Below are positions 2,607 to 39,370 of a DNA stretch of 64,000 nt, piece after piece; the first letter of the stretch is position 1, and each line of letters starts with the position of its first letter. The notes below the pieces were generated by a model. That model was given only the letters and a program-made list of their open reading frames with translations, was not told the origin of the DNA and did not search any database. The stretch covers positions 6,802-70,801 of the forward strand of contig JAYPRP010000002.1 of assembly GCA_038132575.1 (NCBI GenBank), written 5' to 3'. Made by a program: the position numbers and the translations under genes. Origin of the DNA: Rhodospirillaceae bacterium. Lineage in GTDB: Bacteria; Pseudomonadota; Alphaproteobacteria; UBA6615.

Positions 2607-2610
2607 CGGT

Positions 2611-7731: not shown

Positions 7732-7758
7732 CGTGGTTTCCCTTTCTTGGGTCCCGTC

Positions 7759-7821: not shown

Positions 7822-7829
7822 CAGTTGGA

Positions 7830-8933
7830 TTAGAGCTTCAGCAGCTTCGCCGCGTTCTCACCGAGAATGGCGCGTTTCTGTTCGTCGGACAGGTTCGACC
7901 CCATAACGTGGCCCACCGGATCGGTCTCGGCCATGTCGTAGGGATAGTCGGTGCCCATGATCACATGCTCGGCGCCGTAGTGGTTGGCCAGGAACTCGAG
8001 CTGGTCGTGGGTGAAGACCACGCTGTCAAAGTAGAAGCGCTCCAGATACGAACCCGGCCGCTTGCCTGCAGGCAGCTCGCGCTGCATGTCGGCGCGCAGC
8101 GGATGCGCGTGGTCGATGCGGCCCGGATAGGACCCGAGGAAGCCGCCGCCATGGGCGAGTACCACCTTGAGCCCCGGGTGCCGGTCCATCACACCGTCGA
8201 AGATCAGGTAGTGGACCGCAACCGTGGTCGCCAGCGGATTGCCGATGATGTTGGAGAAGTAGTGGTCCGCCAGCCGGTCGCCTTTGGCGAAGCCCGACGG
8301 GTGGATAAAGACGATGACGTCGAGCTCCTCGCACTTAGCCCAGAACGGATCGAGGCCCGCCCTGGAGAGCTCCTGGCCGGCGACGTCGGCATTGATCTCC
8401 ACGCCGCGCATTCCCATGTCTTTCACGGCGCGCTCAAGCTCGGCAACAGCCATCTGCGAATCCTGCAGGGGCACGGTGCACAGGCCGACGAAACGGTCGG
8501 GATGCTCGCCGACTACCTCGGCCAGCTTATTGTTGACCGTCTGCGCCACCTCGCGGCCCAGGTCCGGCTCCGCCCAGTAGCAGTAATGGTTCGGCGCGGT
8601 GGAGATAGCCTGCACGTCGACCCCGGTCGCGTCCATCTCGGCCAGACGCAGGGACGAGTCCGTGATCTTGGGCATGATGTCCTGGCCGTGGGCCATCTGG
8701 AACTTGCGGGTCTCGTCGTTGGCGAACCAGAGCAGCGGCTCGTTCTGGAGATCGAAGACCTCCTTCACCAGTGCGTCCGCCTCGGGGACATGCAGGTGGC
8801 AGTGTATGTCAACCGTGCGCACGCTGAGTTTCTCGACCTTGACGGTATGCCCGCCCGCGTCGCTGGCGGGGGCGTGGGCGGCATGCCCGTGGGGTTGTCC
8901 CTGAAGATGATTGTGGCCACATCTAAAAAGCAT
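7830..8933 (-). CDS. Amidohydrolase-2 family protein, tandem paralog of 6637..7731, 367 aa.
   Basis: DIHCHLHV, HGGG and TDYPYDMAETDPVGHV motifs. About 55% identical to its neighbour by eye. Confidence 0.75.
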   Translation of the reverse strand: MLFRCGHNHLQGQPHGHAAHAPASDAGGHTVKVEKLSVRTVDIHCHLHVPEADALVKEVFDLQNEPLLWFANDETRKFQMAHGQDIMPKITDSSLRLAEMDATGVDVQAISTAPNHYCYWAEPDLGREVAQTVNNKLAEVVGEHPDRFVGLCTVPLQDSQMAVAELERAVKDMGMRGVEINADVAGQELSRAGLDPFWAKCEELDVIVFIHPSGFAKGDRLADHYFSNIIGNPLATTVAVHYLIFDGVMDRHPGLKVVLAHGGGFLGSYPGRIDHAHPLRADMQRELPAGKRPGSYLERFYFDSVVFTHDQLEFLANHYGAEHVIMGTDYPYDMAETDPVGHVMGSNLSDEQKRAILGENAAKLLKL

Positions 8934-9159
8934 GCGTTTTCCTTCCCGGCTTGACGGGTTTGTTTATGGGTCTCGGCACTTATCAGGAGAAATTCCGGTT
9001 CGCCGGCGGACGCGATTATACAGAAGGAAAACCGTGCGCAAAGTGGCTGAAAACAGCCGCCGCTATTCCATCCCTGCGGGCTTGAATGCTATCGTTTGCC
9101 CAATCGGAAAAACAAAATATCGGCGAATTCGCGCGGGTTTCCCGAAGGAGTATCACACC

Positions 9160-17783: not shown

Positions 17784-17913
17784 ATGTGCTGCCTCCAACC
17801 GTTCGCGCGCCAAGGAAATCCTGTTCGTGACGGTTGTCCATCACAGGTGTTGGTCGCGGAAGGGACTATATCAGTCTTGATCCCGACCGCCCCGACCGGA
17901 ACAATCACGCCCC

Positions 17914-19320
17914 ATGGCCGACCCAAGCCCCGACTTCTCCGCGATCCCCTCGCTCGACCGCCTGTTGCAGGCGCCGTCGGTCGCCACCCTCGTGGAATCG
18001 CACGGACGCGCCGCGACGACGGCGGCACTGCGCGCGGCGCTCGACGGCGCCCGCGGGACGATCGCGGCGGGCGACGCAGCTGACCTCTCGGAAGATGCCT
18101 TCGCGCGAACGGCGGCGGCGCAACTCGCGCGCGCGGCGGCCCCCGGGCTGCGCCGCGTCTTCAACCTGACCGGCACCGTGCTGCACACAAACCTGGGCCG
18201 GGCGCCGCTGGCCGAAGCGGCAATCGAGGCGATGGCCGAGGCCGCGCGCGGCGCGAGCAACCTGGAATACGATCTCGACAGCGGCAAGCGCGGCGACCGG
18301 GACACCCATGTCGAGGAACTGCTCTGTGAGCTGACAGGTGCCGAGGCCGCGACAGTCGTGAACAACAATGCGGGCGCCGTCCTGCTGCTCCTGAACGCGC
18401 TGGCGCTGCGCAAGGAAGTGCCCGTCTCGCGCGGCGAGCTGGTCGAGATCGGCGGCGCCTTCCGGATTCCCGACATCATGGCGCGGGCGGGCGCCAAGCT
18501 GGTCGAGGTCGGTACCACCAACCGGACCCACGCCCGGGACTTCGAGGGTGCGATCGGCGCCAGGACCGCGCTGGTGATGAAGGTCCACACGTCGAACTAC
18601 ACGGTCCAGGGCTTCACCGCCGACGTGCCCGAGGGCGATCTCGCCGGGATCGCCCACGCGGCGGACATTCCCTTCGCCGTCGATCTGGGTGCCGGGGCGC
18701 TGGTGGATCTCGAGCGCTGGGGCCTGCCCCACGAGCCCACCCCGCGCGAGACGCTGGCGGCGGGCGCGGACATCGTCACCTTCTCCGGCGACAAGCTGCT
18801 GGGCGGCCCCCAGGCGGGGCTGATCGTCGGGCGCGCGGACCTGATCGCGCGGCTCAAGAAGAACCCTCTCAAGCGTGCGCTCCGCTGCGACAAGGCAACC
18901 CTCGCCGCGCTGGCCGCGACCCTGATGCTCTACCGCGATCCCGACCGGCTGGCTGAACGGCTGCCCACGCTCAAGCTCCTGGCGCGTGGGGCGGACGATA
19001 TTCGCGCCGTCGCGGGATCGCTGCGCGACGCGGTTGGCGAGGCCGTCGGCGACGCGTTCACGGTCTCGGTCGAGGACTGCGCCGGACAGATCGGATCGGG
19101 CGCGCTCCCGGTCGAGAGCCTGGGCAGCGCCGCACTGGTCATCCGGCCGGCCGCGGTGCGCGGCCAGGGCGCGAAACTCAAACGGCTGGCGGCATCGCTC
19201 CGCGCCTTGCCCGTGCCGGTCATCGGGCGCGTGCATGACGACGCGCTCTGGCTCGACCTGCGCTGCCTCGACGATACCGACGGCTTCTGCGCCCAGCTCC
19301 AAAATCTGCACACATCATGA
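17914..19320 (+). CDS. selA: L-seryl-tRNA(Sec) selenium transferase (selenocysteine synthase), 468 aa.
   Basis: [15 protein letters not shown] and the PLP-lysine motif [13 protein letters not shown]. Size and order match selA; it is followed by selB with a 4-nt overlap. Confidence 0.9.
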
Positions 19321-21227
19321 TCATCGCGACCGCGGGCCATATCGATCACGGCAAGACCCTGCTCGTGAAATCGCTGACGGGCGTCGACGCCGACCGCCTG
19401 CCGGAAGAGAAAAAGCGCGGCATGACGCTCGATCTCGGCTTTGCGTACACCGACCTCGAGAACGGCGCGCGGCTCGGCTTCATCGACGTGCCGGGCCATG
19501 AACGCCTGGTCCACAACATGCTGGCGGGCGTGACCGGCATCGACTGCGCGCTGCTCGTGGTCGCGGCGGACGACGGCCCCATGCCCCAGACGCTCGAACA
19601 CCTGGCGATCCTCGATATCCTGGGCGTCTCGCGCGGGATGGTCGCGCTCACGAAGATCGACCGGGTGGACGCATCCCGCGTGGCCGAGGTCCGGGACGAG
19701 ATCGAACTGCTGATCTGTGAAACTTCGCTGGCGGGCGCGACGGTGTTCCCGGTCTCGGCGGTCACCGGCGACGGGATCGAGGCGCTGCGGGAAGAAATCG
19801 CCGACATGGCCGCGGTCACCGAGGCGCGCTCCGGCGCAGGGCATTTCCGCCTCGCCGTCGACCGGGTGTTCACCGTCGCAGGCGCCGGCCTGGTGGCGAC
19901 CGGCACCGCCTTCGCCGGCACGGTCTCCCGCGAGGACCGGCTGTGGATCGCGGGGCACGACGTGCAGGCGCGCGTCCGCGGCATTCACGCCAACAACACG
20001 GACAGCGAGACAGGCCGGGCCGGAGACCGGCTGGCGCTCAACCTCGCCGGGCTCGACAAGGACGACATCGCGCGCGGCGACTGGTTGGTGGCCGATTCCG
20101 GGCTCGGGCTCTACCGCAAGCTGGATGTCCGGCTGAACGTGGTCGCCGATGCCAAGAGGCCGCTGCGGCACTGGACCCCCGTCCATGTGCATCTCGGCGC
20201 GCGGAACGTCACCGGCCGGGTGGCGATCCTCGGCGCCGACAGCGCCGCGCCGGGGAGCAACGTACCGGCGCAGCTCGTGCTGGACGCGCCCGTCGGCGCG
20301 TGCGTGCGCGACCGGTTCGTCATTCGCGACCAGTCGGCACAGGTCACGCTCGGCGGCGGGCACGTAGTGGATCTGCATCCGCCGCGCCGGGGGCGCGCCA
20401 GGCCGGAACGCCTCGAGCTGCTCGACGCCCTCGACACGCCCGACGCCGAGACGGCACTTGCCAGCGCACTGGCCCGGTCCCCGACCGGCCTGTCGATCGC
20501 CGACTTCGCGGCGGAGCGCAACCTGACCGAGGCCGAGATGTCCGCCGCTCTTTCGGCGACCGGCGCGGCGTCGGCGGGAACCGGCGCGGATGCGCTTGCG
20601 ATCGCGCAAGACGCCTGGGCCGCGCGGCGCGAGGAGTTGCTCGCCGCCCTCGACCAGTTCCACACGCGCTACCCCGACCGGCTGGGGCCCGCCGCGGCAC
20701 AGCTGCGCAAGAGCGTCGGCCGGTTCATCCCGGAGACCCTGTTCGACGCGGTCAGCGCGAAGCTGGTCGCCGACGGCACCATGTCGAGCGACGGGATGCT
20801 GCTGCACCGCCCGGATCACCGGCCGGGCCTGACGGGCGACGACGCGAAGCGCTGGGAAGCGCTGCAGCCCTATCTGAACGAGACGCCGGCAAGCCCGCCG
20901 GTGGTGCATGACCTGGCCCAGGCCGCCGGCCTCCCGGTCAACGGCGTCGGCAAGACGCTGCGCCAGGCGGTGCGCATGGGGCTCGCCGTGCAGATTGCCG
21001 AGAACCGGTTCTTCCTGCCCGCAGCGCTGCGCGCGCACGCACGGACCTTCGAAGCGATGATCGCCGCCGACGGCAGCGTCGGTGTGTCGCCATTCCGCAA
21101 GGAAGCGGGAATCGGACGGAATCTCGCCGTCGAGTTACTGGAGTATTTCGATCGGGTCGGCCTGTCACAGCGCGACGGGAATGTTCGTCACCAGCTCCGG
21201 CCGGTCGAAGAAGTGTTCGGCGCCTAA
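19317..21227 (+). CDS. selB: Selenocysteine-specific translation elongation factor, 636 aa.
   Basis: N-terminus [22 protein letters not shown] with G-domain motifs DVPGHE and TKID. A long C-terminal extension is consistent with SECIS-binding winged-helix domains. Confidence 0.9.
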
Positions 21228-24455: not shown

Positions 24456-24929
24456 ATGTCAGAGAAACTCGGCATCGGCTCGGCCTTCCCGAAACTGACG
24501 GTTGATCTCGTCGGCGGCGGAACGCTCAGCCTGCCCGATGACCTAGACGCACGGTACCGGGTCATCCTCTTCTACCGTGGCCACTGGTGACCCTACTGTC
24601 GCCGTCAGTTGGTCGGCTTTGCAGAATTGAAAGACGAGTTCGACAAGCTCGGCGCCCAGGTATTCGCCGCCAGCGTCGATCCCGTCGATAAGGCCCAGGA
24701 AGTCGCCGATGAGGTGAACTTCCCCGTCGGACACAGCGTATCCCGGGACATCGCCAACGCGCTCGGCTCCTACTGGGAGGACCGGCGCCGGATCATCCAG
24801 CCTTCGGAATTCATCGTCGGTGCCGACGGCAACGTCGCCGCCTGTTCGTACAGCGACGGCCCGCTGGGCCGGATCGATGCGGCGGACGTCCTCAAGATGG
24901 TGAATTTCTACGATTCCCAGAACAAGTAG
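24456..24929 (+). CDS. Candidate selenoprotein: thioredoxin-fold redoxin (AhpC/TSA/Prx-like) with W-U-P-Y-C active site. TGA at 24588..24590. About 157 aa.
   Basis: Start MSEKLGIGSAFPKL after an AAAGGAAG RBS. Track ORFs 24375..24590 and 24609..24929 share a frame. Read-through: ...RVILFYRGHW-TGA-PYCRRQLVGFAELKDEFDKLGAQVF.... TGA sits at the first Cys of a CxxC motif. Confidence 0.6.
24601..24617 (+). other. Candidate SECIS hairpin GCCG-ucaguuggu-CGGC beginning 10 nt after the UGA of the redoxin gene.
   Basis: Short stem with a G-containing apical loop at the expected spacing. Weak on its own. Confidence 0.25.
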
Positions 24930-25623: not shown

Positions 25624-25719
25624 GGAGGAGGACCGTTCCCCGGTGGGGCGCCCGGTCTTCAAAACCGGTGAGGGGCGTTAGACGTGCCTGGTGGGTTCGA
25701 CTCCCACCCTCTTCCGCCA
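25624..25719 (+). tRNA. selC: tRNA-Sec (anticodon UCA), 96 nt including encoded CCA.
   Basis: 8-bp acceptor stem GGAGGAGG/CCTCTTCC (one G-U pair). 6-bp D-stem. Anticodon stem CCGGT/ACCGG with loop CTTCAAA (anticodon TCA). Long variable arm. 5-bp T-stem GTGGG/CCCAC with TTCGACT loop. Discriminator G, then CCA. The 8/5 architecture is diagnostic of bacterial tRNA-Sec. Confidence 0.85.
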
Positions 25720-25812: not shown

Positions 25813-28035
25813 ATGACCCCGACCGTCCCGATCACACATGATATTGTCCTGATCGGCGGCGGCCATAGCCATGTGGCCGTCCTCAAGCGGTTCGGCATGA
25901 AGCCCGAGCCCGGGATCCGGCTGACTCTGATCACCCGGGACCTGCTGACACCCTATTCGGGCATGATCCCCGGCTACATCGCCAACCATTACAGCGCGGC
26001 CGAGGCGCATATTGACCTGCGCCCCCTCGCCGCCTTCGCCAACGCCCGGATCATCCACGCGGCGGCGACGGGGCTGGATCTGCAAAACAACTATGTCCAG
26101 GTCGCCGGCCGCCCGTCCGTGGCGTTCGATCTCGTCTCCGTCGACACCGGCTCGACCCCGTCAACGGCAGACATCGTCGGCGCCGGACACGGGTTGCCGG
26201 TGAAACCCATCGACCGCTTCCTTGAAACGTATCACCGCCTGACCGACGAGATCAGGAACCATCGTGGCCCGTTCCACATCACCATTGCGGGTGGCGGCGC
26301 GGGCGGGGTCGAGCTCGCGCTCGCGCTGCGCCACCGGCTGGGGCTGGCGGCACCGGGCCTCGGTAAGCGCCCCGGCGATCTCCGCTTCGCCATCGTCGAG
26401 GCCGCCGATACGCTCTTGCCCGGCTACAACAGGGCGGCCCGCCGCAAGCTCGCCCGCGCGCTCGCGGACCGCGGGATCGCCGTGCAAACCGGCGCGGGCG
26501 TGACACAGGTCGGGCCGGATACGGTGACCCTCGCCGACGGCGGCGTGCTTGACAGTGACAGAACGATCCTGGTGACCTCGGCCGGACCGCCCCACTGGCT
26601 CGCGGACAGCGATGTGGCGCGCGACGACCGCGGCTTCGTGCGGGTCGATGCGACGCTCCGCTCGCCGTCGCATCCGCAACTCTTCGCCACCGGCGACGCC
26701 GCCTCGATGGACGGGCACGCGCTGCCGAAGGCGGGGGTCTATGCCGTCCGCCAGGGGCCTTACCTGGCCGAGAACCTGGGCCGCGCGGCGCGGGGCCGGC
26801 CGCTGCGCAGCTACCGGCCGCAGGGCCAGACCCTGGCGCTCATCACCACGGGCGACAGGTTCGCCATCGCCGCACGCGGCTCGCTCTCCGTTCAGGGCGC
26901 CTGGGTGTGGCGCTGGAAGGACTGGATCGACCGACGCTGGATGCGCAAATACCAGGAGCTGCCGGACATGGATGCGGGCGACGGCGCGGACGGCGACGCA
27001 ACGCTCGAGGCCATGCGCTGTGGGGGCTGCGGCGCCAAGGTGCCGGCCCCGGTGCTCCGCCGCGCGCTCGACCGTTTGCCGCCGCAGGAAATCGAGGGCC
27101 TCGACCAGGGGCTGGATTCACCCGACGACGCAGCGGTCCTCACCCCGCCGCCGGGCAAGGCACTAATCCAGACCGTCGACCAGTTCCGCGCCTTCATCGA
27201 CGATCCCTATCTCTTCGGACGCATCGCGGCCAACCACTGCCTGGGCGATATCTTCGCAATGGGCGCCGAGGCCCATTCAGCACTGGCCGCGGTGATGCTG
27301 CCCCACGGCGAGGACGCGAAGACGTCCGACGATCTCTACCAGCTGCTCGCGGGTGCGACCGAGACCCTTGCAGAGGCCGGCGCGGTTCTCGCCGGCGGCC
27401 ACACCGGCGAGGGTGCGGAGATGGCCTTCGGCCTGACGGTCAACGGCTATGCCGATCCGGACACCATCCTGCGCAAGGGCGGGCTCGCGCCCGGCGACGC
27501 CCTAATCCTCACCAAGCCGCTCGGCACGGGCGTCCTGTTCGCCGCCGACATGCGTGCCAAGGCGGGCGGCGACCATGTGACGGCGGCGTTCGCCTCCATG
27601 CAGCGCTCGCTCGCGCTGGCGATCCCGGTGGTCCGGGACCATGGCGCGCACGCCGCCACCGATGTCACCGGCTTCGGGCTGGCGGGGCACCTGCTGGAGA
27701 TGCTCAACGCATCGGGCGTCGATGCCGAGCTCGAGCTCAACGCGCTGCCGGTCCTGCCGGGCATCGCCGCGCTGGTGGCCGCCGGCCATGAGAGCACGCT
27801 CCGGCCCGGCAACGAGGAGGCGGTCGGCAACGCCGCGCCCGTCTCAGCGCACCCGAACTTCCCGCTGCTGTTCGATCCGCAGACCGCGGGCGGGCTTCTC
27901 GTTGGCGTCCCGAGCGAACGGGCCGAGGCCTGCCTTGACGCGCTCCGCGCCGGCCCCGCGCCGGACGCGACGATTATCGGGCAAGTCACTGCAAGGATGG
28001 GCGACGTCTGCGTGCTGCGCTACGCCGAAACCTGA
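25813..28035 (+). CDS. selD: Bifunctional protein: N-terminal FAD-dependent pyridine-nucleotide-disulfide (NADH dehydrogenase-like) oxidoreductase domain fused to selenide, water dikinase, 740 aa. Cys-type active site.
   Basis: N-terminus DIVLIGGGHSHVAVLK (Rossmann FAD motif) and a second GGGAGGVELA nucleotide-binding motif. C-terminal half has SelD hallmarks: MRCGGCGAKV (catalytic Cys, not Sec) and an AIR-synthase-like fold. Confidence 0.85.
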   Translation: MTPTVPITHDIVLIGGGHSHVAVLKRFGMKPEPGIRLTLITRDLLTPYSGMIPGYIANHYSAAEAHIDLRPLAAFANARIIHAAATGLDLQNNYVQVAGRPSVAFDLVSVDTGSTPSTADIVGAGHGLPVKPIDRFLETYHRLTDEIRNHRGPFHITIAGGGAGGVELALALRHRLGLAAPGLGKRPGDLRFAIVEAADTLLPGYNRAARRKLARALADRGIAVQTGAGVTQVGPDTVTLADGGVLDSDRTILVTSAGPPHWLADSDVARDDRGFVRVDATLRSPSHPQLFATGDAASMDGHALPKAGVYAVRQGPYLAENLGRAARGRPLRSYRPQGQTLALITTGDRFAIAARGSLSVQGAWVWRWKDWIDRRWMRKYQELPDMDAGDGADGDATLEAMRCGGCGAKVPAPVLRRALDRLPPQEIEGLDQGLDSPDDAAVLTPPPGKALIQTVDQFRAFIDDPYLFGRIAANHCLGDIFAMGAEAHSALAAVMLPHGEDAKTSDDLYQLLAGATETLAEAGAVLAGGHTGEGAEMAFGLTVNGYADPDTILRKGGLAPGDALILTKPLGTGVLFAADMRAKAGGDHVTAAFASMQRSLALAIPVVRDHGAHAATDVTGFGLAGHLLEMLNASGVDAELELNALPVLPGIAALVAAGHESTLRPGNEEAVGNAAPVSAHPNFPLLFDPQTAGGLLVGVPSERAEACLDALRAGPAPDATIIGQVTARMGDVCVLRYAET

Positions 28036-28094: not shown

Positions 28095-29330
28095 TCAGCC
28101 GTGAATGGTGCGGTGGCGCTGATGGGTCGGAACCATGGCCGTCGGCGCGAGCGCCTTGAAGCCCGGATGCTCGCTCTCCATCGCCCAGTTGCGGATCTCC
28201 ACGAGCACCTTGCCCAGGGTCGTCTCACCCCACAGCCAATTCCCGATGTCCACGTCGGTGACCCGGCCGTCGGGCCGCGCGATCGCCGATTCCATGTAGT
28301 AGTAGCGCATGTCGTCGGCCATCTGCTTGAAGGCCAGATGGACCGGCTTTTCGTCGCCGAACGGTGACGGCGTGTCTTCCCGGTTCACCACGAGGCTGGC
28401 AAGGAACGCGGGAATCTCCTCGGGCGCCTTGCCCGAGATCCCGTAGTTCGTCCGTCCGCCGCGGCTCTGCTTCGATTCCTCGTACCACGGTTTCAGGAGC
28501 GCGATCTCCTGCAACAGCGTCTGCTCGAGCAGTTCCTGATCGCTGACGTCCTCCACCAGTGCCGCGAAGTTGACCGGGCAGGCCCAGCCTTCCTGCTCGA
28601 CGTCCGCGCCCGGCGGGTCGTCGGGGAAGTCTTCCAGGACGGGTCCGGATTCACGCTCCAGCAGGTCCAGGCAATCGCGCAGGACCCGGCGCTGAAACTC
28701 CGGCTCGTTCGGCGCGCCCAGGGGACGGCCGAGCTCGAATGGCACCGCGAGCGCGCGCGGAGGCTTGATTTCCTCGGCATGCTTGCGGATCAGCGCGATC
28801 TGCGTCGTCGGAATGCCTTCGTCTTCGAGATAGTGTGCAAGCCCGCCCACGGCGCGCGTGCATTGGGGTCAGACGGGGACGAGCGCAACCGCGTCGACAT
28901 TGTCCGCCTTGAGGACGCCGGCGAGGTCACGCGCGATGGGTTCCATCACGGTCGGCGGGGTTGCCCCCATGAAGGAGAAGTGCCGGCTCGCGACCGAGCC
29001 GATGACACCCTCTTCGGCCAGTTCGCGCAGGCGGTCGATCGGGAAGGATGTGTTCACGTCCTGATAGAAGCCGCTGCGGTCGAAGTTGGTCGACAGGTGG
29101 CTCATCACCAGGTCGCCCATGTCGTAATCGTCCGGGATGATCCGGTAGTCGCCGGCGCCCGGCGTGAACGGATCGTCCTCGCGCCGGTGCAGACCGGCGG
29201 TCGAGATAAGCGCGACACGGCATTCGTCGAGCGGCTTGGGCGTGACCCATGGCGTGTCGCCGTACTCGGGCAGTTCCTGATTGATCAGCGCCTCGCGCAG
29301 ATGATCAGGCATTTCTCGCAGGTGAACCAT
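28095..29330 (-). CDS. Candidate selenoprotein of the glycine/sarcosine/betaine/D-proline reductase selenoprotein B (GrdB/PrdB) family. UxxC motif with TGA at 28869..28871. About 411 aa read-through.
   Basis: Track ORFs 28869..29597 and 28095..28850 are in the same frame (29597-28850 = 747). Start chosen at MVHLREMPDHL (29330, GGGGAG RBS). Junction ...VDAVALVPV-TGA-PQCTRAVGGLAHYLEDEGIPTTQIALIRKH... gives U-P-Q-C. My by-eye base reading around 28800-28860 differed by one base from the track translation, so the junction follows the track frames. Confidence 0.5.
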
Positions 29331-29443: not shown

Positions 29444-30136
29444 TCAGGCCGCGCGCATGTCCTCGGCGGTGGTGCCGGTCGAGGTGTTCTCGGCGTATTT
29501 GCGCCAGTTCTCGATCAGCACCTCGAGCGACGCAGAGCCCTCCGTCACCGACGGGCGCTGGCCCATGAGCTGCAGCCAACCCTTGAGGAGCACGCATTCG
29601 TCGGGGATCTGGAAGTCGCGGTAGTGGGTGAGCACCGCGACCCGCTGCATGTGCGGCAGGAAGGTCAGGTCGACCAGACTGATGTCGTCGCCGAGCCAGT
29701 AGGAGCCGTCGCCCAGCTTGCCGAGCCCTTCATGCTCCATCATCAGCATCGCCTTCGTCAGCCGCTCAACCTGGAAGGCCTGGGCCTCGGCGTCCTGGGC
29801 CATCATCAGCTTGTAGACATGGGGCGTGAAGCGGACATTCGCGAAATCGATCCAGATGCGCGCCTGGGCCCGGCGGACCGGATCGCGCGGCAGCAACGGA
29901 CGCTCCGGGAACACCTCCTCGAGATACTCGTTGATGACGGCGGATTCGAAGATCACCGCACCGTTGTGACGCAGCACGGGCACCTTGCCGTAGGGCGAGA
30001 TCGCGAGGAACCAATCGGGCTTGTCGTTCAGGTCGATCGCGGTGAGCGTGTGCTCGATCCCCTTCTCGATCAGCGCCATCCGGGTGCGCTGGGCGAACGG
30101 ACAGGTGGACGAACTGATGATCTCGACGTCGCTCAT
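29444..30136 (-). CDS. Glutathione S-transferase (Cys-type, CPFA active site), 230 aa.
   Basis: N-terminus MSDVEIISSSTCPFAQRTRMALIEKGIEH (thioredoxin-like GST N-domain) and a C-terminal helical domain. Confidence 0.75.
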   Translation of the reverse strand: MSDVEIISSSTCPFAQRTRMALIEKGIEHTLTAIDLNDKPDWFLAISPYGKVPVLRHNGAVIFESAVINEYLEEVFPERPLLPRDPVRRAQARIWIDFANVRFTPHVYKLMMAQDAEAQAFQVERLTKAMLMMEHEGLGKLGDGSYWLGDDISLVDLTFLPHMQRVAVLTHYRDFQIPDECVLLKGWLQLMGQRPSVTEGSASLEVLIENWRKYAENTSTGTTAEDMRAA

Positions 30137-30153: not shown

Positions 30154-32550
30154 CTAGTACTTGCCGAGCGCCTTGAGCACCCGCTCGGGCGTGATCGGCT
30201 GGGCGAAGACCGTCGCCCCCAGGGGACTGAGCGCGTCGTTGACGGCGTTCAGGATCGCGCCGGGCGCACCCGCGGTGCCGGCCTCGCCCGCACCCTTAGC
30301 GCCGAGCTCGGATTCCTTCGTCAGCGTCTCCACATGCCCGATCTCGATATCCGGCATCTCGCCCGCCATGGGCACCAGATAGTCGGCCATGTTCGCGTTC
30401 AGGAAGTTGCCGTCCAGGTCATAGCGGCACTCCTCGTAGAGCACGCCGCCGATGCCCTGGACAATCGAGCCGCGCACCTGTTCGTCCACCAGGAGCGGGT
30501 TGATGACCTTGCCGCAATCCTCAACGCAGTAGAACTTGAGCAGCTCGACCGTGCCGAGCTCGGGATCGACCTCGCAGGTCACGGCCTGGAAACTGTTGGT
30601 CATCGCCACGGGATACTTCTTCGGGATGTAGTGGCGCGTCGCCATCATCTCGGACTGGAAATCCTGGGGCAGCGTGTCGGGCCGGAAGTAGGCCACGCGC
30701 GCCACCTCCTCGAGCGGCATGCGCTCCTCGCCGGTCGCCCGGTCAACCACGACGCCGTGGCGGATGTCCAGCGACGCGGCCTCGGACTGGAGCAGGATCG
30801 CGGCCACGTCGAGGACGTTGTGACGCAGCGCCTTGGCCGCCTGGAGCGCTGCCTCGCCGGCAATGCCCGCACCGCCGGAACCGCCCGCGCCCCAGCCGAC
30901 CGGGACGTTGTCCGTGTCGCCCGAGATCACCTTTACCTTGTCCGGCGTGGTGCCGAAGGCGCTGGCCGTCACCTGCTGGATCACGGCCTCCGAGCCCTGG
31001 CCCTGCTCGGTGATCGACGTCTGGACGATCACGGCCCCCGACGCGTCCATCCGCGCTGCCGCGCCGTCCTGGGACGATATGCGCGCCCCGCCCAGCCCGT
31101 AGGTGTGCGGGCCCGGGTTCGTCATCTCGACAAGGGTCGCAAAACCGACGCCGCGGTAGATGCCCTGTTCGCGCAACCGGGCCTGCTCCGCGCGGAAACC
31201 CTGGTAGTCGAACATGGCAAGAAGCTTGTCGAGCGAGGCCTCGTGGGAGAGGGCCTCCATCTTCAGGCCGGTGATGAAATCGCGCGGATAGCTGTCGTCC
31301 GCCATGAGGTTGCGCCGGCGCACATCGACCGGATCGAGCCCGAGCTTGCGCGCACCCTCTTCCATGAGCGTTTCGGTGATCGCGACGGCGACGGGATGGC
31401 CAACCGCGCGATACTGGCTCATCGGCGTCTTGTTCTGGAACACGACGCGCGAGCGCGCCTTGTAGTTCGCGTGGTTGTAGGGCGCGCCGACATAGTTGAT
31501 GACCTGCAGCGCCTCGAGCGCGGAGGTGCGGGGATACATCGAGTAGGGACCGACGCCCGTGAGGTCGTCCATCTCGATGGCGAGCAGTTCGCCATCCTCG
31601 GCAAACGCCGCGCGCACGTGAGCGCGGTGGTCGCGCGCGTGCAGGTCCGTCAGGAAGGATTCAATCCGGTCGGCGATGAACTTCACCGGCCGTTTCATGA
31701 TCTTGGAGATCGCGGCCGTCGCCATCTCGTCGGGATAGGTGTGTCCCTTGACGCCATACGCACCGCCGACGTCGCCGCACACGATCCGGACATTCTGGTT
31801 CGGGATGTCGAGATGCCGGGCGAACAGGTCCTGCATCATGTGCGGGGCCTGGTGCGAATGGTACGAGGTCAGGCGGTTCTCGGAGCTGTGATAGTCGGCG
31901 ATGATCGCGCGCGATTCCGGGCACACGCCGGTGTGACGGCCGAAATGCATGGTGTGCCCGACCACCGCCGCCGCCTCGGCAAACGCCTTTTCGGTGTCGC
32001 CGATATCGTGATTCATCTCGAACAGCAGGTTGTCGCCAAGATCGGCATGCATCACGAGCGTGTCGTCGTCGAGCGCGACCTCGGGATCGGCGAGCACCGG
32101 CAGTTCCTCGAACTCGACCTCCAGCAGTTCGAGCGCGTCCTCGGCTTCCGCCCGGCTGTGGGCGACGATCGCGGCCACCGGCTCGCCCTGCCAGCAGGCC
32201 CGGTCCACTGCCATCGCGTACTGGGGCGCCGACTTCATGCCCTTGAAGTGGGCAAGCGTTCCGACCCAGGGGGTACAGACCTCGGCGATCTCCTTGCCCG
32301 TGAACACCCGGATCACGCCGGGGCTCGCCAGCGCGGCCGCGTCGTCGATCGAGACGATCTTCGCGTGCGCATAGGGCGAACGGAAATAGGCCACATGGAC
32401 CATGCGCGGCAGCGACAGGTCATCGACATACCTGCCCTGGCCGGCCACCAGGCGCGCGGCGTTGGCGCGCGGCACGGTCTTGCCGATGAAGGTTTCCTCG
32501 CGGTCGAGGACGCTTTCCTCGCCCGAATGGTCCGCCACGCTCATGAGCAC
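30154..32550 (-). CDS. Xanthine dehydrogenase/CoxL-family molybdopterin-binding subunit, 798 aa.
   Basis: ELGAKGAGEAGTAGAPGAILNAVNDAL C-terminal active-site Glu region and a QYRAVGHP loop. Paralog of 32735..35125 and 9160..11499. Confidence 0.8.
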   Translation of the reverse strand: MLMSVADHSGEESVLDREETFIGKTVPRANAARLVAGQGRYVDDLSLPRMVHVAYFRSPYAHAKIVSIDDAAALASPGVIRVFTGKEIAEVCTPWVGTLAHFKGMKSAPQYAMAVDRACWQGEPVAAIVAHSRAEAEDALELLEVEFEELPVLADPEVALDDDTLVMHADLGDNLLFEMNHDIGDTEKAFAEAAAVVGHTMHFGRHTGVCPESRAIIADYHSSENRLTSYHSHQAPHMMQDLFARHLDIPNQNVRIVCGDVGGAYGVKGHTYPDEMATAAISKIMKRPVKFIADRIESFLTDLHARDHRAHVRAAFAEDGELLAIEMDDLTGVGPYSMYPRTSALEALQVINYVGAPYNHANYKARSRVVFQNKTPMSQYRAVGHPVAVAITETLMEEGARKLGLDPVDVRRRNLMADDSYPRDFITGLKMEALSHEASLDKLLAMFDYQGFRAEQARLREQGIYRGVGFATLVEMTNPGPHTYGLGGARISSQDGAAARMDASGAVIVQTSITEQGQGSEAVIQQVTASAFGTTPDKVKVISGDTDNVPVGWGAGGSGGAGIAGEAALQAAKALRHNVLDVAAILLQSEAASLDIRHGVVVDRATGEERMPLEEVARVAYFRPDTLPQDFQSEMMATRHYIPKKYPVAMTNSFQAVTCEVDPELGTVELLKFYCVEDCGKVINPLLVDEQVRGSIVQGIGGVLYEECRYDLDGNFLNANMADYLVPMAGEMPDIEIGHVETLTKESELGAKGAGEAGTAGAPGAILNAVNDALSPLGATVFAQPITPERVLKALGKY

Positions 32551-32734: not shown

Positions 32735-35125
32735 CTAGAACTTGCCGAGCGCCTTCAGGATTCGTTCCGGCGTGATCGGCTGGTGCGACACGCGGACGTC
32801 GAAGGGCGAGAGCGCATCGTTGATGGCGTTCATGACCACCCCCGGCGCGCCGGCCGTGCCGGCCTCGCCCGCACCCTTGGCGCCGAGTTCCGAATCCGCC
32901 GTCGGCGTCTCCACATGGCCGACATGGATGTCCGGCATCTCGCCGGCCATGGGCACCAGGTAGTCGGCCATATTGGCGTTCACGAGATTGCCCGTATCGT
33001 CGTAGCGGCATTCCTCGAGCAGCGCGCCGCCGAGCCCCTGGATCACGCCGCCGCGCACCTGCTCGTCCACCAGCTGCGGGTTCAGCACCGTGCCGCAATC
33101 CTCGACGACCCAGTAGTCCAGGAACCGCAGGAAACCGGTCTCCGGATCGACCTCGACGTAGCAGGCCTGGATGCCGTTCGTGAACGCGATGTTGTACTCG
33201 CGCGGCACGAAATGGCGGGTCGCCATCAGCTCGGGCTGGAAGCCCTTGGGGATCAGGTCCGAGCGGAAGTAGGAGATCCGCGCCAGCTCGTCGAGCCCCA
33301 TCCGCTCGTTGCCCGTGTCGTCATCGACCACCACGCCCTCGCGGATGTCGAGGGTCTTCGGGTCGGCCTGGAGGAGCTGGCCGGCGATGTCCTTGATGTT
33401 GTAACGCAGCGCCTTGGCCGCCCGGAGCACGGCCTCTCCGCCGATGCCCGCGCCGCGCGAGCCCCAGGTGCCGCCGCCGGTGGGCACGTTGTCCGTGTCG
33501 CCGGTGATGACCTTGACCCGGTCCGGGCTGGTGCCGAACGCGGTGGCCGCGATCTGGCCCATGATCGCGTCGGTGCCCTGTCCCTGCTCGGTCACCGACG
33601 TGTGGACGACGATCGAGCCGCTCGAATCGAGCCGCACCTGCGCGCCGTCCTGGGACGAAATCCGCGCGCCGCCGATGCCGTACATGGCCGCGCCCGGGTT
33701 GGTGAGCTCGATCATCGCCGCGAAGCCGATGCCGCGATAGACGCCCTCGCCGCGCAGCCTGTCGCGCTCGGCCTTCATGCCCTCGTAGTCCATCGCGCCG
33801 AGCAGCTTGTCGAGTGACGCGTGGTGGGAAAGGCCCTCGAAGACGATGCCGCTCGCGCCCTTGGTCGGGTAGGCGTCGTCCGTGATGAGGTTGCGCCGGC
33901 GGATATCGACCGGGTCGATCCCGAGCGCCTGCGCACCCTTGTCCACCATGGCCTCGGTCACGGCGAAGGCGACCGGGTGGCCGACGGCGCGGTACTGGCA
34001 CATGACGTTCTTGTTCTGGAACACGACCTGCGCCTTGGCGCGATAGTGCTCGTGCTTGTAGGGGCCGCCGGTGAAGTTCAGGACCTGGTTCGCCTCCATC
34101 GCGCTCGTGCGCGGGTACATGGAGTAGGGCCCGACGCCGGTCAGGTCGTCGATCTCGATCGCGGTGATGTCACCGTCCCTGGTGAAGCCCATCTTGGCGT
34201 GCACCCGGTGCGCGCGGGCATGGATGTCGGTGAGGAAGGACTCGATCCGGTCGGCGGCGAACTTGACCGGCCGGCCAAGCATCTTCGACAGGGCCACCGT
34301 GGCCATCTCGTCGGCATAGACATGGACCTTGATGCCGAACGACCCGCCGACGTCGCGGCAGACCACGCGAACCTGGCCCTCGGGCACGCCGACATGCTTG
34401 GCGAAGATGTGCTGCATCATGTGCGGCGCCTGGTTCGACATGTGCACGGTCAGCTTGTCGTCGGCCTCGTCATAGTCCGCGACGAGGACGCGCGGCTCCA
34501 GCGTGACGCCGGTGTGGCGGTCGAAGTGGTAGGTCTCCTCGACCACGACGTCCGCGGCGGCAAAGGCCGCGTCCACGTCCCCGGCCTCGACCCCGTTCTC
34601 GAAGGCGATGTTGTCGCCGAGATCGGGATGGATGACCGGCGTTCCGGGGTCGCCCGCCGTCTCGGGATCGGTGACCGCCGGCAGCTCCTCATACTCGACC
34701 GTGATCGCGGCCGCGGCATCCTCGGCCTCGGCCCGGCTGTTCGCGACCACGGCGGCAACCGCCTCGCCCTGCCAGCAGACATGATCGACGGCGATCGCGT
34801 GCTGCGGGGCCGACTTGAGGCCCTTGAAGTGGGTGAGCACGCCGACCCAGGGCTCGCAATACTCCGCCAGTTCGGCGCCGGTGACGACGCGAACGACACC
34901 GGGCATCCCGGCGGCCGCGCTCGTGTCGATCGAGATGATTCTCGCATGGGCGTGGGGCGAGCGGAGATAGACCGCGTGCACCATGCGGGGCAGCTTCAGG
35001 TCATCGACGAACTGGCCCTTGCCGCGCACGAGCTTGCGCACGTTCGGCCGCGGCACCACCTTGCCGATGTAGCTGTTGGGGCGTCCCAGGACGCTCGAAT
35101 CCGGACTCAGGGCTTCGTCGGTCAT
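32735..35125 (-). CDS. Xanthine dehydrogenase/CoxL-family molybdopterin-binding subunit, 796 aa.
   Basis: ELGAKGAGEAGTAGAPGVVMNAINDAL and QYRAVGHPVAFAV. Tandem paralog of the downstream gene. Confidence 0.8.
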   Translation of the reverse strand: MTDEALSPDSSVLGRPNSYIGKVVPRPNVRKLVRGKGQFVDDLKLPRMVHAVYLRSPHAHARIISIDTSAAAGMPGVVRVVTGAELAEYCEPWVGVLTHFKGLKSAPQHAIAVDHVCWQGEAVAAVVANSRAEAEDAAAAITVEYEELPAVTDPETAGDPGTPVIHPDLGDNIAFENGVEAGDVDAAFAAADVVVEETYHFDRHTGVTLEPRVLVADYDEADDKLTVHMSNQAPHMMQHIFAKHVGVPEGQVRVVCRDVGGSFGIKVHVYADEMATVALSKMLGRPVKFAADRIESFLTDIHARAHRVHAKMGFTRDGDITAIEIDDLTGVGPYSMYPRTSAMEANQVLNFTGGPYKHEHYRAKAQVVFQNKNVMCQYRAVGHPVAFAVTEAMVDKGAQALGIDPVDIRRRNLITDDAYPTKGASGIVFEGLSHHASLDKLLGAMDYEGMKAERDRLRGEGVYRGIGFAAMIELTNPGAAMYGIGGARISSQDGAQVRLDSSGSIVVHTSVTEQGQGTDAIMGQIAATAFGTSPDRVKVITGDTDNVPTGGGTWGSRGAGIGGEAVLRAAKALRYNIKDIAGQLLQADPKTLDIREGVVVDDDTGNERMGLDELARISYFRSDLIPKGFQPELMATRHFVPREYNIAFTNGIQACYVEVDPETGFLRFLDYWVVEDCGTVLNPQLVDEQVRGGVIQGLGGALLEECRYDDTGNLVNANMADYLVPMAGEMPDIHVGHVETPTADSELGAKGAGEAGTAGAPGVVMNAINDALSPFDVRVSHQPITPERILKALGKF

Positions 35126-35182
35126 CGTCTCTCTCCACGCGTGTCTTTTCGTCCGCGTCTGGTGCGCGGATTGGTTACCGGA

Positions 35183-38065: not shown

Positions 38066-39229
38066 TCAGTAGGCCTTGCCGCGCGCCGTCACCGGCCAGA
38101 GGGTCTCGACCCTTCCGTTCCGCACCCCGACATACCAGTCGTGCAGGTTCGCCGTCGGGTCGCAATGGCCGGGAACCAGCCGCAGTTTGTCGCCCACCTT
38201 CAGCACGCCGCCAGGGTCGGACACGACGCCATGTTCGTCGGAGCAGCTGATGTATTCTACGTCATCGCGCCCGAACACGAACGGCAGGCCGCTGTCGACG
38301 GACTGGACCTTCAGGCCGGCATCGACAACCGCCCGGTCGGCCTTCACATGGCTCATCACCTGGGTGAGCAGGAAGAAGGCGTACTCCCATTCGCCGGCGT
38401 CGAGCCGCACACCATCGGCATCGAGGATCTGGCCGTAGTCGGCATCCATGAACGCGTAGGAACCGCACTGCAGCTCGTTGTAGACGCCCGAGTTGCTTTC
38501 GAGCGTGTAGGTGCCGGTGCCGCCACCCGTCACCAGCTCGGGCGATAGTCCGGCCGCCTCCAGGCCGGCGATAACGTTTCTCAACTGGGTGATCGCGACG
38601 TCGAGCTTCTCCGCCCGCGCGGCGTAGCTCTGGAGATGCTGGGCAGAACCCTGGTAAGCCTGGATGCCGGCGAACGTCAGTCCTGCGGCGGCGTTGATAG
38701 TACGGGCCAATTCCACCGCCTCCCCGGTTGCCGCGACGCCGCAGCGACCCTGCCCGCAGTCGATCTCGACCAGCACCTCGAGCGCCGTGCCATGGCGAGA
38801 GGCCGCGTCCGACAGTTCCGCCACATTGTCGGGGTCGTCAACACAGACGATCACCCGCGCGCCGCGTCTCGGAAGCCGCGCTAGCCGATCGATCTTCACG
38901 AGGTCACGAACCTCATTCGACACCAGGACGTCCGTGATCCCGCCGCGGACGAACGCCTCGGCTTCGGAGGGTTTCTGGCAGCACACGCCGACCGCACCGC
39001 CGATGTCTTGCTGCAATTTCGCGATGTCGACCGACTTGTGCATCTTTCCGTGCACGCGCAGCTTCATGCCGTGTGCGGCCGCGTAGTCGCCCATCTTGCG
39101 GATATTCCGCTCCAGCGCATCGAGATCGAGCACAATGCAGGGAGTCTGTATCTCGGTTTCATCCATCCCCGGCAAGGCGGGTACGTCGTAGCCGACCTCG
39201 AGACCGTTCAATTCCGTCACCGCGCTCAT
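38066..39229 (-). CDS. DSD1/alanine-racemase-fold PLP-dependent enzyme (D-serine dehydratase-like, D-threonine aldolase or 3[17 protein letters not shown] dehydratase-like), 387 aa.
   Basis: VHGKMHKSVDIA (PLP-Lys in an HxK context) and a C-terminal metal-binding HCDP region characteristic of the DSD1 family. Confidence 0.7.
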   Translation of the reverse strand: MSAVTELNGLEVGYDVPALPGMDETEIQTPCIVLDLDALERNIRKMGDYAAAHGMKLRVHGKMHKSVDIAKLQQDIGGAVGVCCQKPSEAEAFVRGGITDVLVSNEVRDLVKIDRLARLPRRGARVIVCVDDPDNVAELSDAASRHGTALEVLVEIDCGQGRCGVAATGEAVELARTINAAAGLTFAGIQAYQGSAQHLQSYAARAEKLDVAITQLRNVIAGLEAAGLSPELVTGGGTGTYTLESNSGVYNELQCGSYAFMDADYGQILDADGVRLDAGEWEYAFFLLTQVMSHVKADRAVVDAGLKVQSVDSGLPFVFGRDDVEYISCSDEHGVVSDPGGVLKVGDKLRLVPGHCDPTANLHDWYVGVRNGRVETLWPVTARGKAY

Positions 39230-39370
39230 CCGGGTCCCCCTTTTATCCGTTCCATGGCATGGACGGAGACGGGCGGGGTAACTAGCATCGGCGCATCATT
39301 CTCGCGAGGCACCGGCTGCCCGCCCTTTAGTTTCACTCGCTTCCAACGACAATATCCCAGGCCCAAATCG

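What the first reader, a model, noticed from the sequence alone, without database searches (positions are those of the whole stretch)
25813..28035. SelD fused to an N-terminal FAD/NAD(P) pyridine-nucleotide-disulfide oxidoreductase domain
The 740-aa product joins a roughly 370-aa NADH-dehydrogenase-like flavoprotein domain to a Cys-type selenophosphate synthetase. This fusion type is reported but rare. It suggests selenide or selenium-trisulfide reduction is channelled directly to selenophosphate synthesis. The fusion sits directly downstream of tRNA-Sec.
Basis: partly seen in the sequence, partly recalled or inferred. Interest (0 to 1): 0.55.

Follow-up and report, generated by a model that had tools for sequence, protein, structure and literature searches.

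The report
Known flavoprotein–SelD fusion (Ndh-SelD)
This is a real, uninterrupted gene for the already described "Ndh-SelD" enzyme: a selenophosphate synthetase with an NADH-dehydrogenase-like flavoprotein fused to its front. The fusion is common in marine bacteria, and here it sits in a selenocysteine gene island, so it is an ordinary member of a known family whose flavoprotein half has not been tested biochemically in any paper I could find.

Summary
Window 25813..28035 (+) is one uninterrupted 740-aa ORF, with tRNA-Sec 93 nt upstream. Residues 10-380 pass the curated "N-terminal to SelD" flavoprotein model (TIGR03169). Residues 399-703 pass the SelD model, and all catalytic residues checked are present (C406 = E. 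coli Cys17, K409 = Lys20, four Asp).

The fusion is not an artefact. All 80 species genomes and 70 of 76 evaluable metagenome loci carry the two halves in one ORF.

It is not rare or new. Zhang et al. 2008 described "Ndh-SelD" as about 40% of Cys-type SelDs in ocean metagenomes, always with a CxxC active-site motif. That motif is present here (C403-G-G-C406). They also proposed the same idea of a reductase feeding SelD.

The window also holds selA, selB and two flanking selenoprotein genes with conserved in-frame TGA, so the enzyme serves selenocysteine synthesis here.

New details from this work:
- The flavoprotein domain has no conserved cysteine and lacks the NDH-2 quinone motif.
- The only invariant cysteines are the CxxC, which sits on a flexible tether.
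- A sister clade of the same fusion sits in selenoneine (senA/senB) clusters.

The reductive-channelling mechanism remains inferred. Interest is low.

The parts
25624..25719 (+). tRNA-Sec (selC), anticodon TCA, 93 nt upstream of the fusion gene
   Evidence: ARAGORN and Rfam RF01852 at 71.2 bits against gathering 47. No terminator-like site lies between it and the ORF. In 16 of the 18 closest alphaproteobacterial loci scanned (55-93% identity), tRNA-Sec is 36-190 nt upstream of the gene.
25813..28035 (+). ndh-selD: a single 740-aa ORF encoding the bifunctional flavoprotein / selenide, water dikinase
   Evidence: The AF2 model has mean pLDDT 90.5 and pTM 0.90.
25813..26955 (+). N-terminal NDH-2-like FAD/NAD(P)H flavoprotein domain (aa 1-381). 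Motifs: GGGHSH 15-20, PYSGMxPG 47-54, GGGAGG 160-165 plus E167, and K306-x-G-V-x-A-V-R313. It contains no cysteine.
   Evidence: TIGR03169 at 445.5 bits against cutoff 310. Best solved relative by sequence is NDH-2 4nwz at 3.2e-16. Foldseek gives TM 0.86-0.88 to NDH-2. Conservation is shown.
26956..27018 (+). Acidic, low-confidence linker (aa 382-402, LPDMDAGDGADGDATLEAMR)
   Evidence: pLDDT is below 50 for aa 388-400. Linker length across 135 fusions ranges 16-61 aa, and the linker is net acidic in most.
27019..27039 (+). SelD glycine-rich catalytic loop C403-G-G-C406-G-A-K409 (CxxC...K)
   Evidence: Alignment to E. coli SelD 3u0o gives C406=Cys17, K409=Lys20 and C403=Gly14. C403, C406 and K409 are invariant in 135/135 fusions. 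Mean pLDDT is about 61 for aa 401-410.
27019..28032 (+). SelD (selenophosphate synthetase) domain, aa 403-740, with AIRS and AIRS_C
   Evidence: TIGR00476 at 291 bits against cutoff 125. E. coli SelD 3u0o matches at 2.4e-44. D439, D456, D479 and D617 correspond to E. coli D51, D68, D91 and D227 and are invariant. Foldseek TM to SelD structures is 0.77-0.86.
17881..19320 (+). selA reading frame (Sec synthase), the consumer of selenophosphate
   Evidence: TIGR00474 at 587.7 bits against cutoff 267.9.
19239..21227 (+). selB reading frame (Sec-specific elongation factor)
   Evidence: TIGR00475 at 457.5 bits against cutoff 242.
24456..24929 (+). Prx-like (AhpC/TSA) selenoprotein gene with Sec codon TGA at 24588..24590 (HW-U-PYC)
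   Evidence: Pfam AhpC-TSA at 4.6e-22. TGA is kept in 10 of 11 homologues, and the 11th has Cys.
28095..29330 (-). PrdB/GrdB-like selenoprotein gene, convergent with ndh-selD, with Sec codon TGA at 28869..28871 (VPV-U-PQC)
   Evidence: Pfam GRDB at 29 bits against cutoff 22. TIGR04483 PrdB at 123 bits is below its cutoff of 300. TGA is kept in 23 of 23 homologues.

Best explanation
The gene encodes a genuine member of the known Ndh-SelD family. SHOWN: the C-terminal half is an intact Cys-type selenophosphate synthetase with every catalytic residue I checked. It lies in a selenocysteine island with selA, selB, tRNA-Sec and two UGA-selenoprotein genes. It belongs to a clade of fusions found only in Sec contexts. 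Its product, selenophosphate, therefore feeds SelA in this organism. SHOWN: the N-terminal half is a well-folded FAD/NAD(P)H flavoprotein of the type II NADH dehydrogenase lineage. It has lost the NDH-2 quinone motif (AQxAxQ has become G-V-x-A-V-R, with invariant K306 and R313) and has no conserved cysteine. The only invariant cysteines in the whole protein are the CxxC pair on the SelD catalytic loop, which hangs on a flexible acidic tether directly after the flavoprotein. INFERRED: the flavoprotein takes electrons from NAD(P)H and passes them, through FAD, to selenium bound at the CxxC loop or to the loop's own disulfide or selenenylsulfide. NADH is the likelier donor in this copy, which has Glu196. 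This would generate or retain selenide at the SelD active site without releasing free selenide in an oxygen-exposed cell. SelD then phosphorylates the selenide with ATP.
For: SelD identity: TIGR00476 at 291 bits against 125, E. coli SelD at 2.4e-44 with C406=Cys17, K409=Lys20 and D439/D456/D479/D617 = D51/D68/D91/D227, all invariant in 135 fusions. Sec context: selA, selB, tRNA-Sec, and two neighbouring genes with conserved in-frame TGA. The window protein clusters with 18 Sec-linked and 0 sen-linked fusions. Fusion stability: 80/80 genome loci and 70/76 evaluable metagenome loci. N-domain: TIGR03169 at 445 bits against 310, NDH-2 by sequence at 3.2e-16 and by structure at TM 0.86-0.88. NDH-2 Q317 and Q321 align to V309 and R313. 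There is no Cys in aa 1-402, and no N-domain column exceeds 43% Cys across 88 diverse fusions. CxxC is present in 135/135 fusions, whereas the literature reports it in under 5% of single-domain SelDs (PMC2398784). The tether has pLDDT below 50. An unfused N-domain gene lies between selB and selA in L122. The reductant hypothesis is published (PMC2432076).
Against: No biochemical test of the flavoprotein domain was found in the searchable literature. Stand-alone N-domain homologues exist (36-38 of 150 cluster representatives). Five of the six stand-alone loci examined show no selenium gene nearby, so the domain may not be restricted to selenium chemistry. The residue at the NAD(P)H-specificity position varies across the family (T/S in 86 of 135, E in 18), so the electron donor is uncertain. 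E. coli-type SelD works without any such domain.
Confidence: 0.7

Rival explanations
1. The flavoprotein does not make the substrate. Instead it keeps the enzyme alive: it re-reduces the CxxC loop when the loop is oxidised to a disulfide in oxygen-rich cells. This makes it a built-in reactivase, replacing the thiol reductant (DTT) that SelD needs in vitro.
For: The CxxC motif is tied strictly to the fusion (135/135; under 5% of single-domain SelDs per PMC2398784). The fusion is enriched in surface-ocean metagenomes and rare in terrestrial genomes. In vitro SelD/SenC assays are run anaerobically with DTT. The loop sits on a flexible tether next to the flavoprotein.
Against: Sequence data do not distinguish this from substrate generation, and the two are not exclusive. 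A flavin acting on a disulfide in another domain, with no cysteine of its own, has few precedents.
Confidence: 0.2
2. The N-domain is a working type II NADH:quinone or sulfide/selenide:quinone oxidoreductase. The fusion merely places SelD at the membrane, or removes excess selenide.
For: The closest solved relatives are NDH-2 and then SQR. The domain ends in a Trp/Arg-rich amphipathic helix (WVWRWKDWIDRRWMRKY).
Against: The NDH-2 quinone motif AQxAxQ is replaced by an invariant GVxAVR. There are no cysteines, so SQR chemistry is impossible. The alignment to NDH-2 stops at residue 384 of 405, so most of the C-terminal membrane anchor is replaced by the linker.
Confidence: 0.06
3. The protein is not the housekeeping SelD. 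It would then be either a SelD-related paralogue (TIGR04369 'fusion_not_SelD') or a SenC dedicated to selenoneine biosynthesis.
For: TIGR04369 gives the numerically highest score (482 bits). The same fusion family sits next to senA/senB in 21/80 genome loci and 29/70 metagenome loci.
Against: The TIGR04369 score is below its cutoff of 700, while the SelD model passes. The catalytic Cys and Lys are present. No senA or senB occurs in the 64-kb window. The window protein falls in the Sec-only clade.
Confidence: 0.03
4. The fusion is an assembly or sequencing artefact: two genes joined by a frameshift error.
For: None found.
Against: The codon-position GC signal is continuous. An identical protein occurs on independent contigs. 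The two halves are fused in 80/80 genome loci and 70/76 metagenome loci. The two-domain model is confident, with pTM 0.90.
Confidence: 0.01

Closest known systems
Ndh-SelD fusion proteins (Zhang et al. 2006/2008; Mariotti et al. 2015; NCBIfam TIGR03169 + TIGR00476)
   Same: Same architecture: an N-terminal COG1252-type flavoprotein followed by a Cys-type SelD. Same CxxC motif in the SelD active site, same aquatic/marine alphaproteobacterial setting, and co-occurrence with Sec machinery. The window protein passes both curated models.
   Different: Nothing essential; it is a member. This work adds that the flavoprotein has no conserved Cys and lacks the quinone motif.
E. coli / Aquifex aeolicus SelD (PDB 3u0o, 2yye, 2zod)
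   Same: PurM-like AIRS and AIRS_C fold, a Gly-rich mobile N-terminal loop with catalytic Cys and Lys, and four metal/ATP-binding Asp.
   Different: E. coli has G-A-G-C17-G-C19-K, whereas this protein has C403-G-G-C406-G-A-K (CxxC instead of CxC). E. coli Asn87 is His475 here, invariant in the fusions. This protein also carries about 400 extra N-terminal residues.
Type II NADH dehydrogenase (NDH-2; Caldalkalibacillus thermarum 4nwz, B. subtilis YjlD)
   Same: Two-Rossmann flavoprotein fold (TM 0.86-0.88, rmsd 2.5 A), an FAD motif and an NAD(P)H motif, and a Glu at the end of the second Rossmann strand in this copy.
   Different: About 20% identity. The first motif is GGGHSH. The quinone motif AQxAxQ is replaced by GVxAVR. 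The C-terminal membrane anchor is replaced by the linker and SelD.
SenC of selenoneine (senABC) gene clusters
   Same: A sister clade of the same Ndh-SelD fusion (45-56% identity to the window protein) lies beside senB and senA in many genomes. It has the same CxxC and the same invariant residues.
   Different: The window has no senA or senB and belongs to the Sec-linked clade. The residue numbering in the one SenC engineering paper I read (PMC11929427) fits a single-domain enzyme, and the sen papers read do not mention the flavoprotein domain.
NifS-SelD fusions (Geobacter sp. FRC-32, some protists)
   Same: Same logic: a selenium-mobilising enzyme fused N-terminally to SelD.
   Different: The partner there is a cysteine/selenocysteine lyase-type enzyme, not a flavoprotein, and the fusion is much rarer.

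Membership tests
SelD / selenide, water dikinase (TIGR00476, COG0709) | Score above the curated family cutoff | tested here: met
   291 bits against cutoff 125, aa 399-703.
SelD / selenide, water dikinase | Catalytic Cys or Sec (E. coli position 17) and Lys20 in the Gly-rich N-terminal loop | tested here: met
   C406 and K409 by alignment to 3u0o. Invariant in 135/135 fusions.
SelD / selenide, water dikinase | Metal/ATP-binding [10 protein letters not shown] (E. coli D51, D68, D91, D227) and the PurM-like fold | tested here: met
   D439, D456, D479 and D617. Pfam AIRS and AIRS_C. Foldseek TM 0.77-0.86 to SelD structures.
SelD / selenide, water dikinase | ATP-dependent formation of selenophosphate from selenide | not testable with these tools
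   Needs an enzyme assay or selD complementation.
SelD / selenide, water dikinase | Co-occurrence with a selenophosphate-using pathway | tested here: met
   selA, selB, tRNA-Sec and two TGA-selenoprotein genes lie within 10 kb.
Ndh-SelD fusion (TIGR03169 N-terminal domain family) | N-terminal domain scores above the TIGR03169 cutoff and lies in the same ORF as SelD | tested here: met
   445.5 bits against cutoff 310, aa 10-380. One ORF with a continuous frame.
Ndh-SelD fusion | CxxC motif at the SelD active site (Zhang et al. 2008) | tested here: met
   C403-G-G-C406.
Type II NADH:quinone oxidoreductase (NDH-2) | Two dinucleotide-binding Rossmann motifs and the NDH-2 fold | tested here: met
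   GGGHSH at 15-20 and GGGAGG at 160-165. TM 0.86-0.88.
Type II NADH:quinone oxidoreductase (NDH-2) | Quinone-site motif AQxAxQ (C. thermarum A316-Q317-x-A319-x-Q321) | tested here: not met
   It aligns to G308-V309-Y-A311-V312-R313, which is invariant as GVxAVR in the family.
Type II NADH:quinone oxidoreductase (NDH-2) | C-terminal membrane-anchoring helices | tested here: inconclusive
   The alignment ends at residue 384 of the 405-aa NDH-2, after which the acidic linker follows. One amphipathic Trp/Arg helix (aa 363-381) remains.
Class I pyridine nucleotide-disulfide oxidoreductases (glutathione/thioredoxin/mercuric reductase type) and SQR | Redox-active cysteine(s) within the flavoprotein domain | tested here: not met
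   No Cys in aa 1-402. No N-domain column exceeds 43% Cys in 88 fusions.
TIGR04369 oxidoreductase/SelD-related fusion ('fusion_not_SelD') | Score above the curated cutoff | tested here: not met
   482 bits against cutoff 700.
SenC (selenoneine cluster selenophosphate synthetase) | Adjacency to senB (TIGR04348) and senA (NF041186) | tested here: not met
   No tblastn hit to senA or senB in the window. The window protein is in the Sec-only clade.

The most novel reading that the evidence does not exclude
The fusion is a 'split' disulfide reductase. A cysteine-free NDH-2-derived flavoprotein would use the CxxC pair on the tethered SelD catalytic loop as its redox-active dithiol. NAD(P)H would then drive formation and retention of enzyme-bound selenide, via a selenenylsulfide or perselenide on C403/C406, so that selenophosphate is made in oxic cells without free selenide. 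The remodelled acceptor site (invariant K306 and R313 in place of the quinone glutamines) would dock the anionic Se-loaded loop or a selenium donor. The same module would serve both selenocysteine and selenoneine pathways.
Probability: 0.4. Interest if true: 0.5.

Novelty: already known. Interest (0 to 1): 0.2.

Why it matters
For this window it matters little. It is a correct annotation of a known, widespread enzyme, sitting in a tidy selenocysteine island of a marine Rhodospirillaceae-like alphaproteobacterium.

The family as a whole still holds an open question. How selenide is produced and delivered to SelD in aerobic cells is unresolved, and the flavoprotein half of Ndh-SelD has been the obvious candidate since 2008. 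I found no biochemical test of it.

Three features seen here give concrete mutants and assays for anyone who takes it up:
- the flavoprotein has no cysteine;
- the quinone motif is lost;
- the CxxC sits on a flexible tether and is strictly conserved.

The same fusion also occurs in selenoneine clusters, which may matter for engineering selenoneine production from selenite.

Tried and rejected
- **Frameshift or artefact:** rejected by the codon-position GC profile and by comparative data.
- **Split orthologues:** I searched with the N-domain alone, and then scanned metagenome contigs with an alignment of stand-alone N-domain proteins. Stand-alone genes exist, but none of the six examined has a selD gene in the locus. 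I found no 'split but adjacent' form.
- **Other selenoproteins:** four other pairs of same-frame adjacent ORFs joined by TGA turned out to be ordinary neighbouring genes.
- **Selenoneine cluster in the window:** none.
- **SelU and YqeB/YqeC (the other selenium traits):** not seen among about 40 window ORFs scanned. ORFs beyond 56.7 kb and a few short gaps were not scanned.
- **Selenium-dependent molybdenum hydroxylase link for the three CoxL-like genes:** the Se-dependent models score far below their cutoffs, so there is no support.
- **Experimental literature on the flavoprotein domain:** four full-text searches and six papers read, nothing found. Subscription-only papers are not covered.
- **Flavin-to-CxxC distance in the AF2 model:** not possible, because model coordinates are not exposed.
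- **Promoter scan:** no sigma-70-like site between tRNA-Sec and the gene. This is uninformative for an alphaproteobacterium.
Full report
**Observation.** Only two codons lie between the upstream in-frame stop and the ATG. Pfam places Pyr_redox_2 at aa 10-315 (3.9e-26), AIRS at 438-545 and AIRS_C at 560-729. NCBIfam is more specific. TIGR03169, a model defined as the flavoprotein domain found N-terminal to SelD, scores 445.5 bits against a cutoff of 310 over aa 10-380. The SelD equivalog TIGR00476 scores 291 bits against 125 over aa 399-703. The look-alike model TIGR04369 ('fusion_not_SelD') scores 482 bits, below its cutoff of 700. tRNA-Sec is at 25624..25719 on the same strand, 93 nt upstream.

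There is no stop in that frame. An identical protein is on record from independent contigs, and the 120 best database hits are nearly all full-length proteins of 730-785 aa with the same three Pfam domains, at 53-95% identity. The two exceptions are partial sequences. In 80 species-representative genomes, the N-domain match is always followed by the SelD match after a 30-96 nt linker-sized gap. I also built patterns from an alignment of stand-alone N-domain proteins and scanned metagenome contigs. Of 80 loci, 70 were fused, 4 were cut by a contig end, and 6 were true stand-alone genes. An AlphaFold2 model of the full protein is confident, with mean pLDDT 90.5 and pTM 0.90. The artefact reading is excluded.

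**Fused or split?** An unbiased search with the N-domain alone found 2,207 clusters (50% identity) at E<=1e-30. Among the best 150 representatives, 99 are fused-length, 38 are stand-alone length (353-420 aa) and 13 are intermediate or truncated. The stand-alone proteins share the family's invariant motifs. None of the six stand-alone loci examined has selD anywhere in the fetched DNA, so I found no 'split but adjacent' arrangement. One stand-alone gene (L122, 5028..6182) lies between tRNA-Sec/selB and selA. That is a single hint that the flavoprotein is tied to selenium metabolism even when unfused.

**The SelD half.** The best solved relative is E. coli SelD (3u0o, 2.4e-44). The alignment puts C406 on catalytic Cys17 and K409 on Lys20. 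D439, D456, D479 and D617 fall on the metal/ATP [10 protein letters not shown] D51, D68, D91 and D227. All are invariant in 135 near-complete fusions. E. coli Cys19 is Ala408 here, and E. coli Gly14 is Cys403, giving C-G-G-C. This is the CxxC motif that Zhang et al. reported in all Ndh-SelD fusions and in under 5% of single-domain SelDs (PMC2398784). So this is a Cys-type SelD and passes every sequence test of membership.

**The flavoprotein half.**
- By sequence, the closest solved proteins are type II NADH dehydrogenases (C. thermarum 4nwz at 3.2e-16, and B. subtilis YjlD), followed by AIF/FSP1 and, weakly, SQR.
- By structure, the model superposes on NDH-2 with TM 0.86-0.88 and rmsd 2.5 A, ahead of SQR at 0.72-0.78. 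No PDB entry covers both halves.
- Both dinucleotide motifs are present: GGGHSH at 15-20 and GGGAGG at 160-165, plus E167.
- The window protein has no cysteine at all in aa 1-402. Across 88 diverse fusions, no N-domain column exceeds 43% Cys. It therefore cannot be a classical disulfide reductase or an SQR.
- The NDH-2 quinone motif A316-Q317-x-A319-x-Q321 aligns to G308-V309-Y-A311-V312-R313. K306 (134/135), G308, V309, A311, V312 (134/135) and R313 are invariant or nearly so in the fusions. The electron-acceptor site has been remodelled and carries two basic residues.
- The alignment to NDH-2 ends at residue 384 of 405, so most of the NDH-2 membrane anchor is replaced by the linker.
- The residue at the end of the second Rossmann strand is Glu196 here, which is NADH-like. 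It is Thr or Ser in 86 of 135 family members, so the electron donor is not uniform.

**The junction.** Residues 388-400 have pLDDT below 50, and the block 401-410, which holds CxxC...K, averages about 61. Both domains are otherwise above 85-90. Linker length varies from 16 to 61 residues across the family, and the linker is usually net acidic. The catalytic loop of SelD is thus on a flexible tether immediately after the flavoprotein.

**Context.** The window carries a complete Sec system:
- selA (17881..19320; TIGR00474, 588 bits) and selB (19239..21227; TIGR00475, 457 bits).
- A Prx-like gene (24456..24929) with in-frame TGA at 24588 (HW-U-PYC).
- tRNA-Sec, then ndh-selD.
- Convergent with ndh-selD, a PrdB/GrdB-like gene (28095..29330, minus strand) with in-frame TGA at 28869-28871 (VPV-U-PQC).

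The TGA is retained in 10 of 11 Prx-like homologues (the remote one has Cys) and in 23 of 23 PrdB-like homologues, so both are genuine selenoprotein genes. This gene order is kept through the alphaproteobacterial clade L001-L018. In 16 of the 18 closest loci scanned, tRNA-Sec lies 36-190 nt upstream of the fusion. No terminator-like site lies between tRNA-Sec and the ORF. No SelU, YqeB/YqeC, senA or senB was found in the window.

**A second context for the same family.** Clustering the neighbours of the fusion in the other genomes gave two recurrent genes. They pass the curated models for SenB (405 bits against 300) and SenA (476 bits against 420). Sen genes flank the fusion in 21 of 80 genome loci and 29 of 70 fused metagenome loci, and never together with selA or selB. 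Sec-linked and sen-linked fusions separate by sequence. The nearest labelled neighbour shares the context in 69 of 73 cases, and the window protein's cluster holds 18 Sec-linked and 0 sen-linked members. The sen papers I could read describe SenC only as a SelD homologue and do not mention a flavoprotein domain.

**Literature.** The fusion was reported by Zhang and Gladyshev's group in 2006-2008.
- In the GOS ocean data, hundreds of Ndh-SelD proteins made up about 40% of Cys-type SelDs, all with CxxC, while the fusion was rare in terrestrial organisms (PMC2398784).
- Mariotti et al. 2015 call NADH-dehydrogenase-like fusions 'by far the most common' SelD fusion, scattered across bacteria and passed to protists by horizontal transfer (PMC4561486).
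- I found no experimental study of the flavoprotein domain.

**Mechanism.** The following are shown: an intact SelD, a Sec context, a folded NDH-2-like flavoprotein with an altered acceptor site and no cysteines, a strictly co-occurring CxxC on a flexible tether, and stable fusion across several phyla. The following is inferred: NAD(P)H reduces FAD, and FAD reduces either selenium bound at the CxxC loop or the loop's own disulfide or selenenylsulfide. Selenide is thereby generated or held at the SelD active site and phosphorylated with ATP. The main rival is a pure 'reactivase' role, keeping the CxxC reduced in oxic cells. Sequence data cannot separate the two. A respiratory NDH-2 or SQR-like role is unlikely given the lost quinone motif and the absent cysteines.

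**Verdict.** It is an ordinary member of a known, curated family, so novelty is 'already known' and interest is low. The residual interest belongs to the family, whose flavoprotein half I found no biochemical study of, and not to this instance.

Noticed in passing
window 24456..24929 (+), TGA at 24588..24590: Prx-like (AhpC/TSA) gene with an in-frame TGA at the peroxidatic position (FYRGHW-U-PYC, UxxC). The TGA is kept in 10 of 11 homologues in related loci, and the remote homologue has Cys (TGC). A hairpin follows the TGA. A strong terminator-like hairpin lies at 24955-24984.
   Followed up: yes
window 28095..29330 (-), TGA at 28869..28871: A 411-aa PrdB/GrdB-like selenoprotein (VPV-U-PQC), convergent with ndh-selD. 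The TGA is kept in 23 of 23 homologues down to 41% identity. The gene stays next to or near the fusion even in distant lineages (L019, L022, L077, L078). It is below every NCBIfam cutoff (PrdB 123 bits against 300), and its C-terminal ~190 aa match no family, so it looks like an uncurated selenoprotein family linked to selD.
   Followed up: partly
loci L023-L073 (genomes) and L082-L152 (metagenomes): The same Ndh-SelD fusion lies beside senB (TIGR04348) and senA (NF041186) selenoneine genes in 21/80 genome loci and 29/70 fused metagenome loci, in a clade separate from the Sec-linked one. The sen papers read do not mention that many SenC proteins carry this flavoprotein domain.
   Followed up: partly
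L122 2498..8586: An unfused N-domain gene (5028..6182) sits between tRNA-Sec/selB (2497..4518) and selA (7129..8586). No selD occurs in the 16-kb locus.
   Followed up: partly
window 17881..21227 (+): selA and selB reading frames overlap and lie 4.4 kb upstream of tRNA-Sec. Together with the two selenoprotein genes, this forms a compact Sec island conserved across loci L001-L018.
   Followed up: yes
window 8911..11499 (+), 30154..32550 (-), 32735..35182 (-): Three paralogous CoxL-type molybdenum hydroxylase large subunits. None reaches any equivalog cutoff; the best hits are glyceraldehyde DH alpha and group-5 CODH. Two lie just beyond the selD/PrdB-like/GST block, and this arrangement is syntenic in the clade. 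No yqeB or yqeC was seen, so a selenium-cofactor link is unsupported.
   Followed up: partly
window 29444..30136 (-): A glutathione S-transferase family gene always accompanies the PrdB-like selenoprotein gene in the alphaproteobacterial clade (18 loci).
   Followed up: no
window 38066..39295 (-): 3[17 protein letters not shown] aldolase BhcC passes its equivalog cutoff (709.5 bits against 690). This suggests a [20 protein letters not shown] cycle gene, consistent with a marine heterotroph.
   Followed up: no
window protein aa 196 (26398..26400): The residue at the end of the second Rossmann strand is Glu in this clade (18 of 135) but Thr or Ser in most family members. The NADH versus NADPH preference may therefore differ between the Sec-linked and sen-linked clades.
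   Followed up: partly
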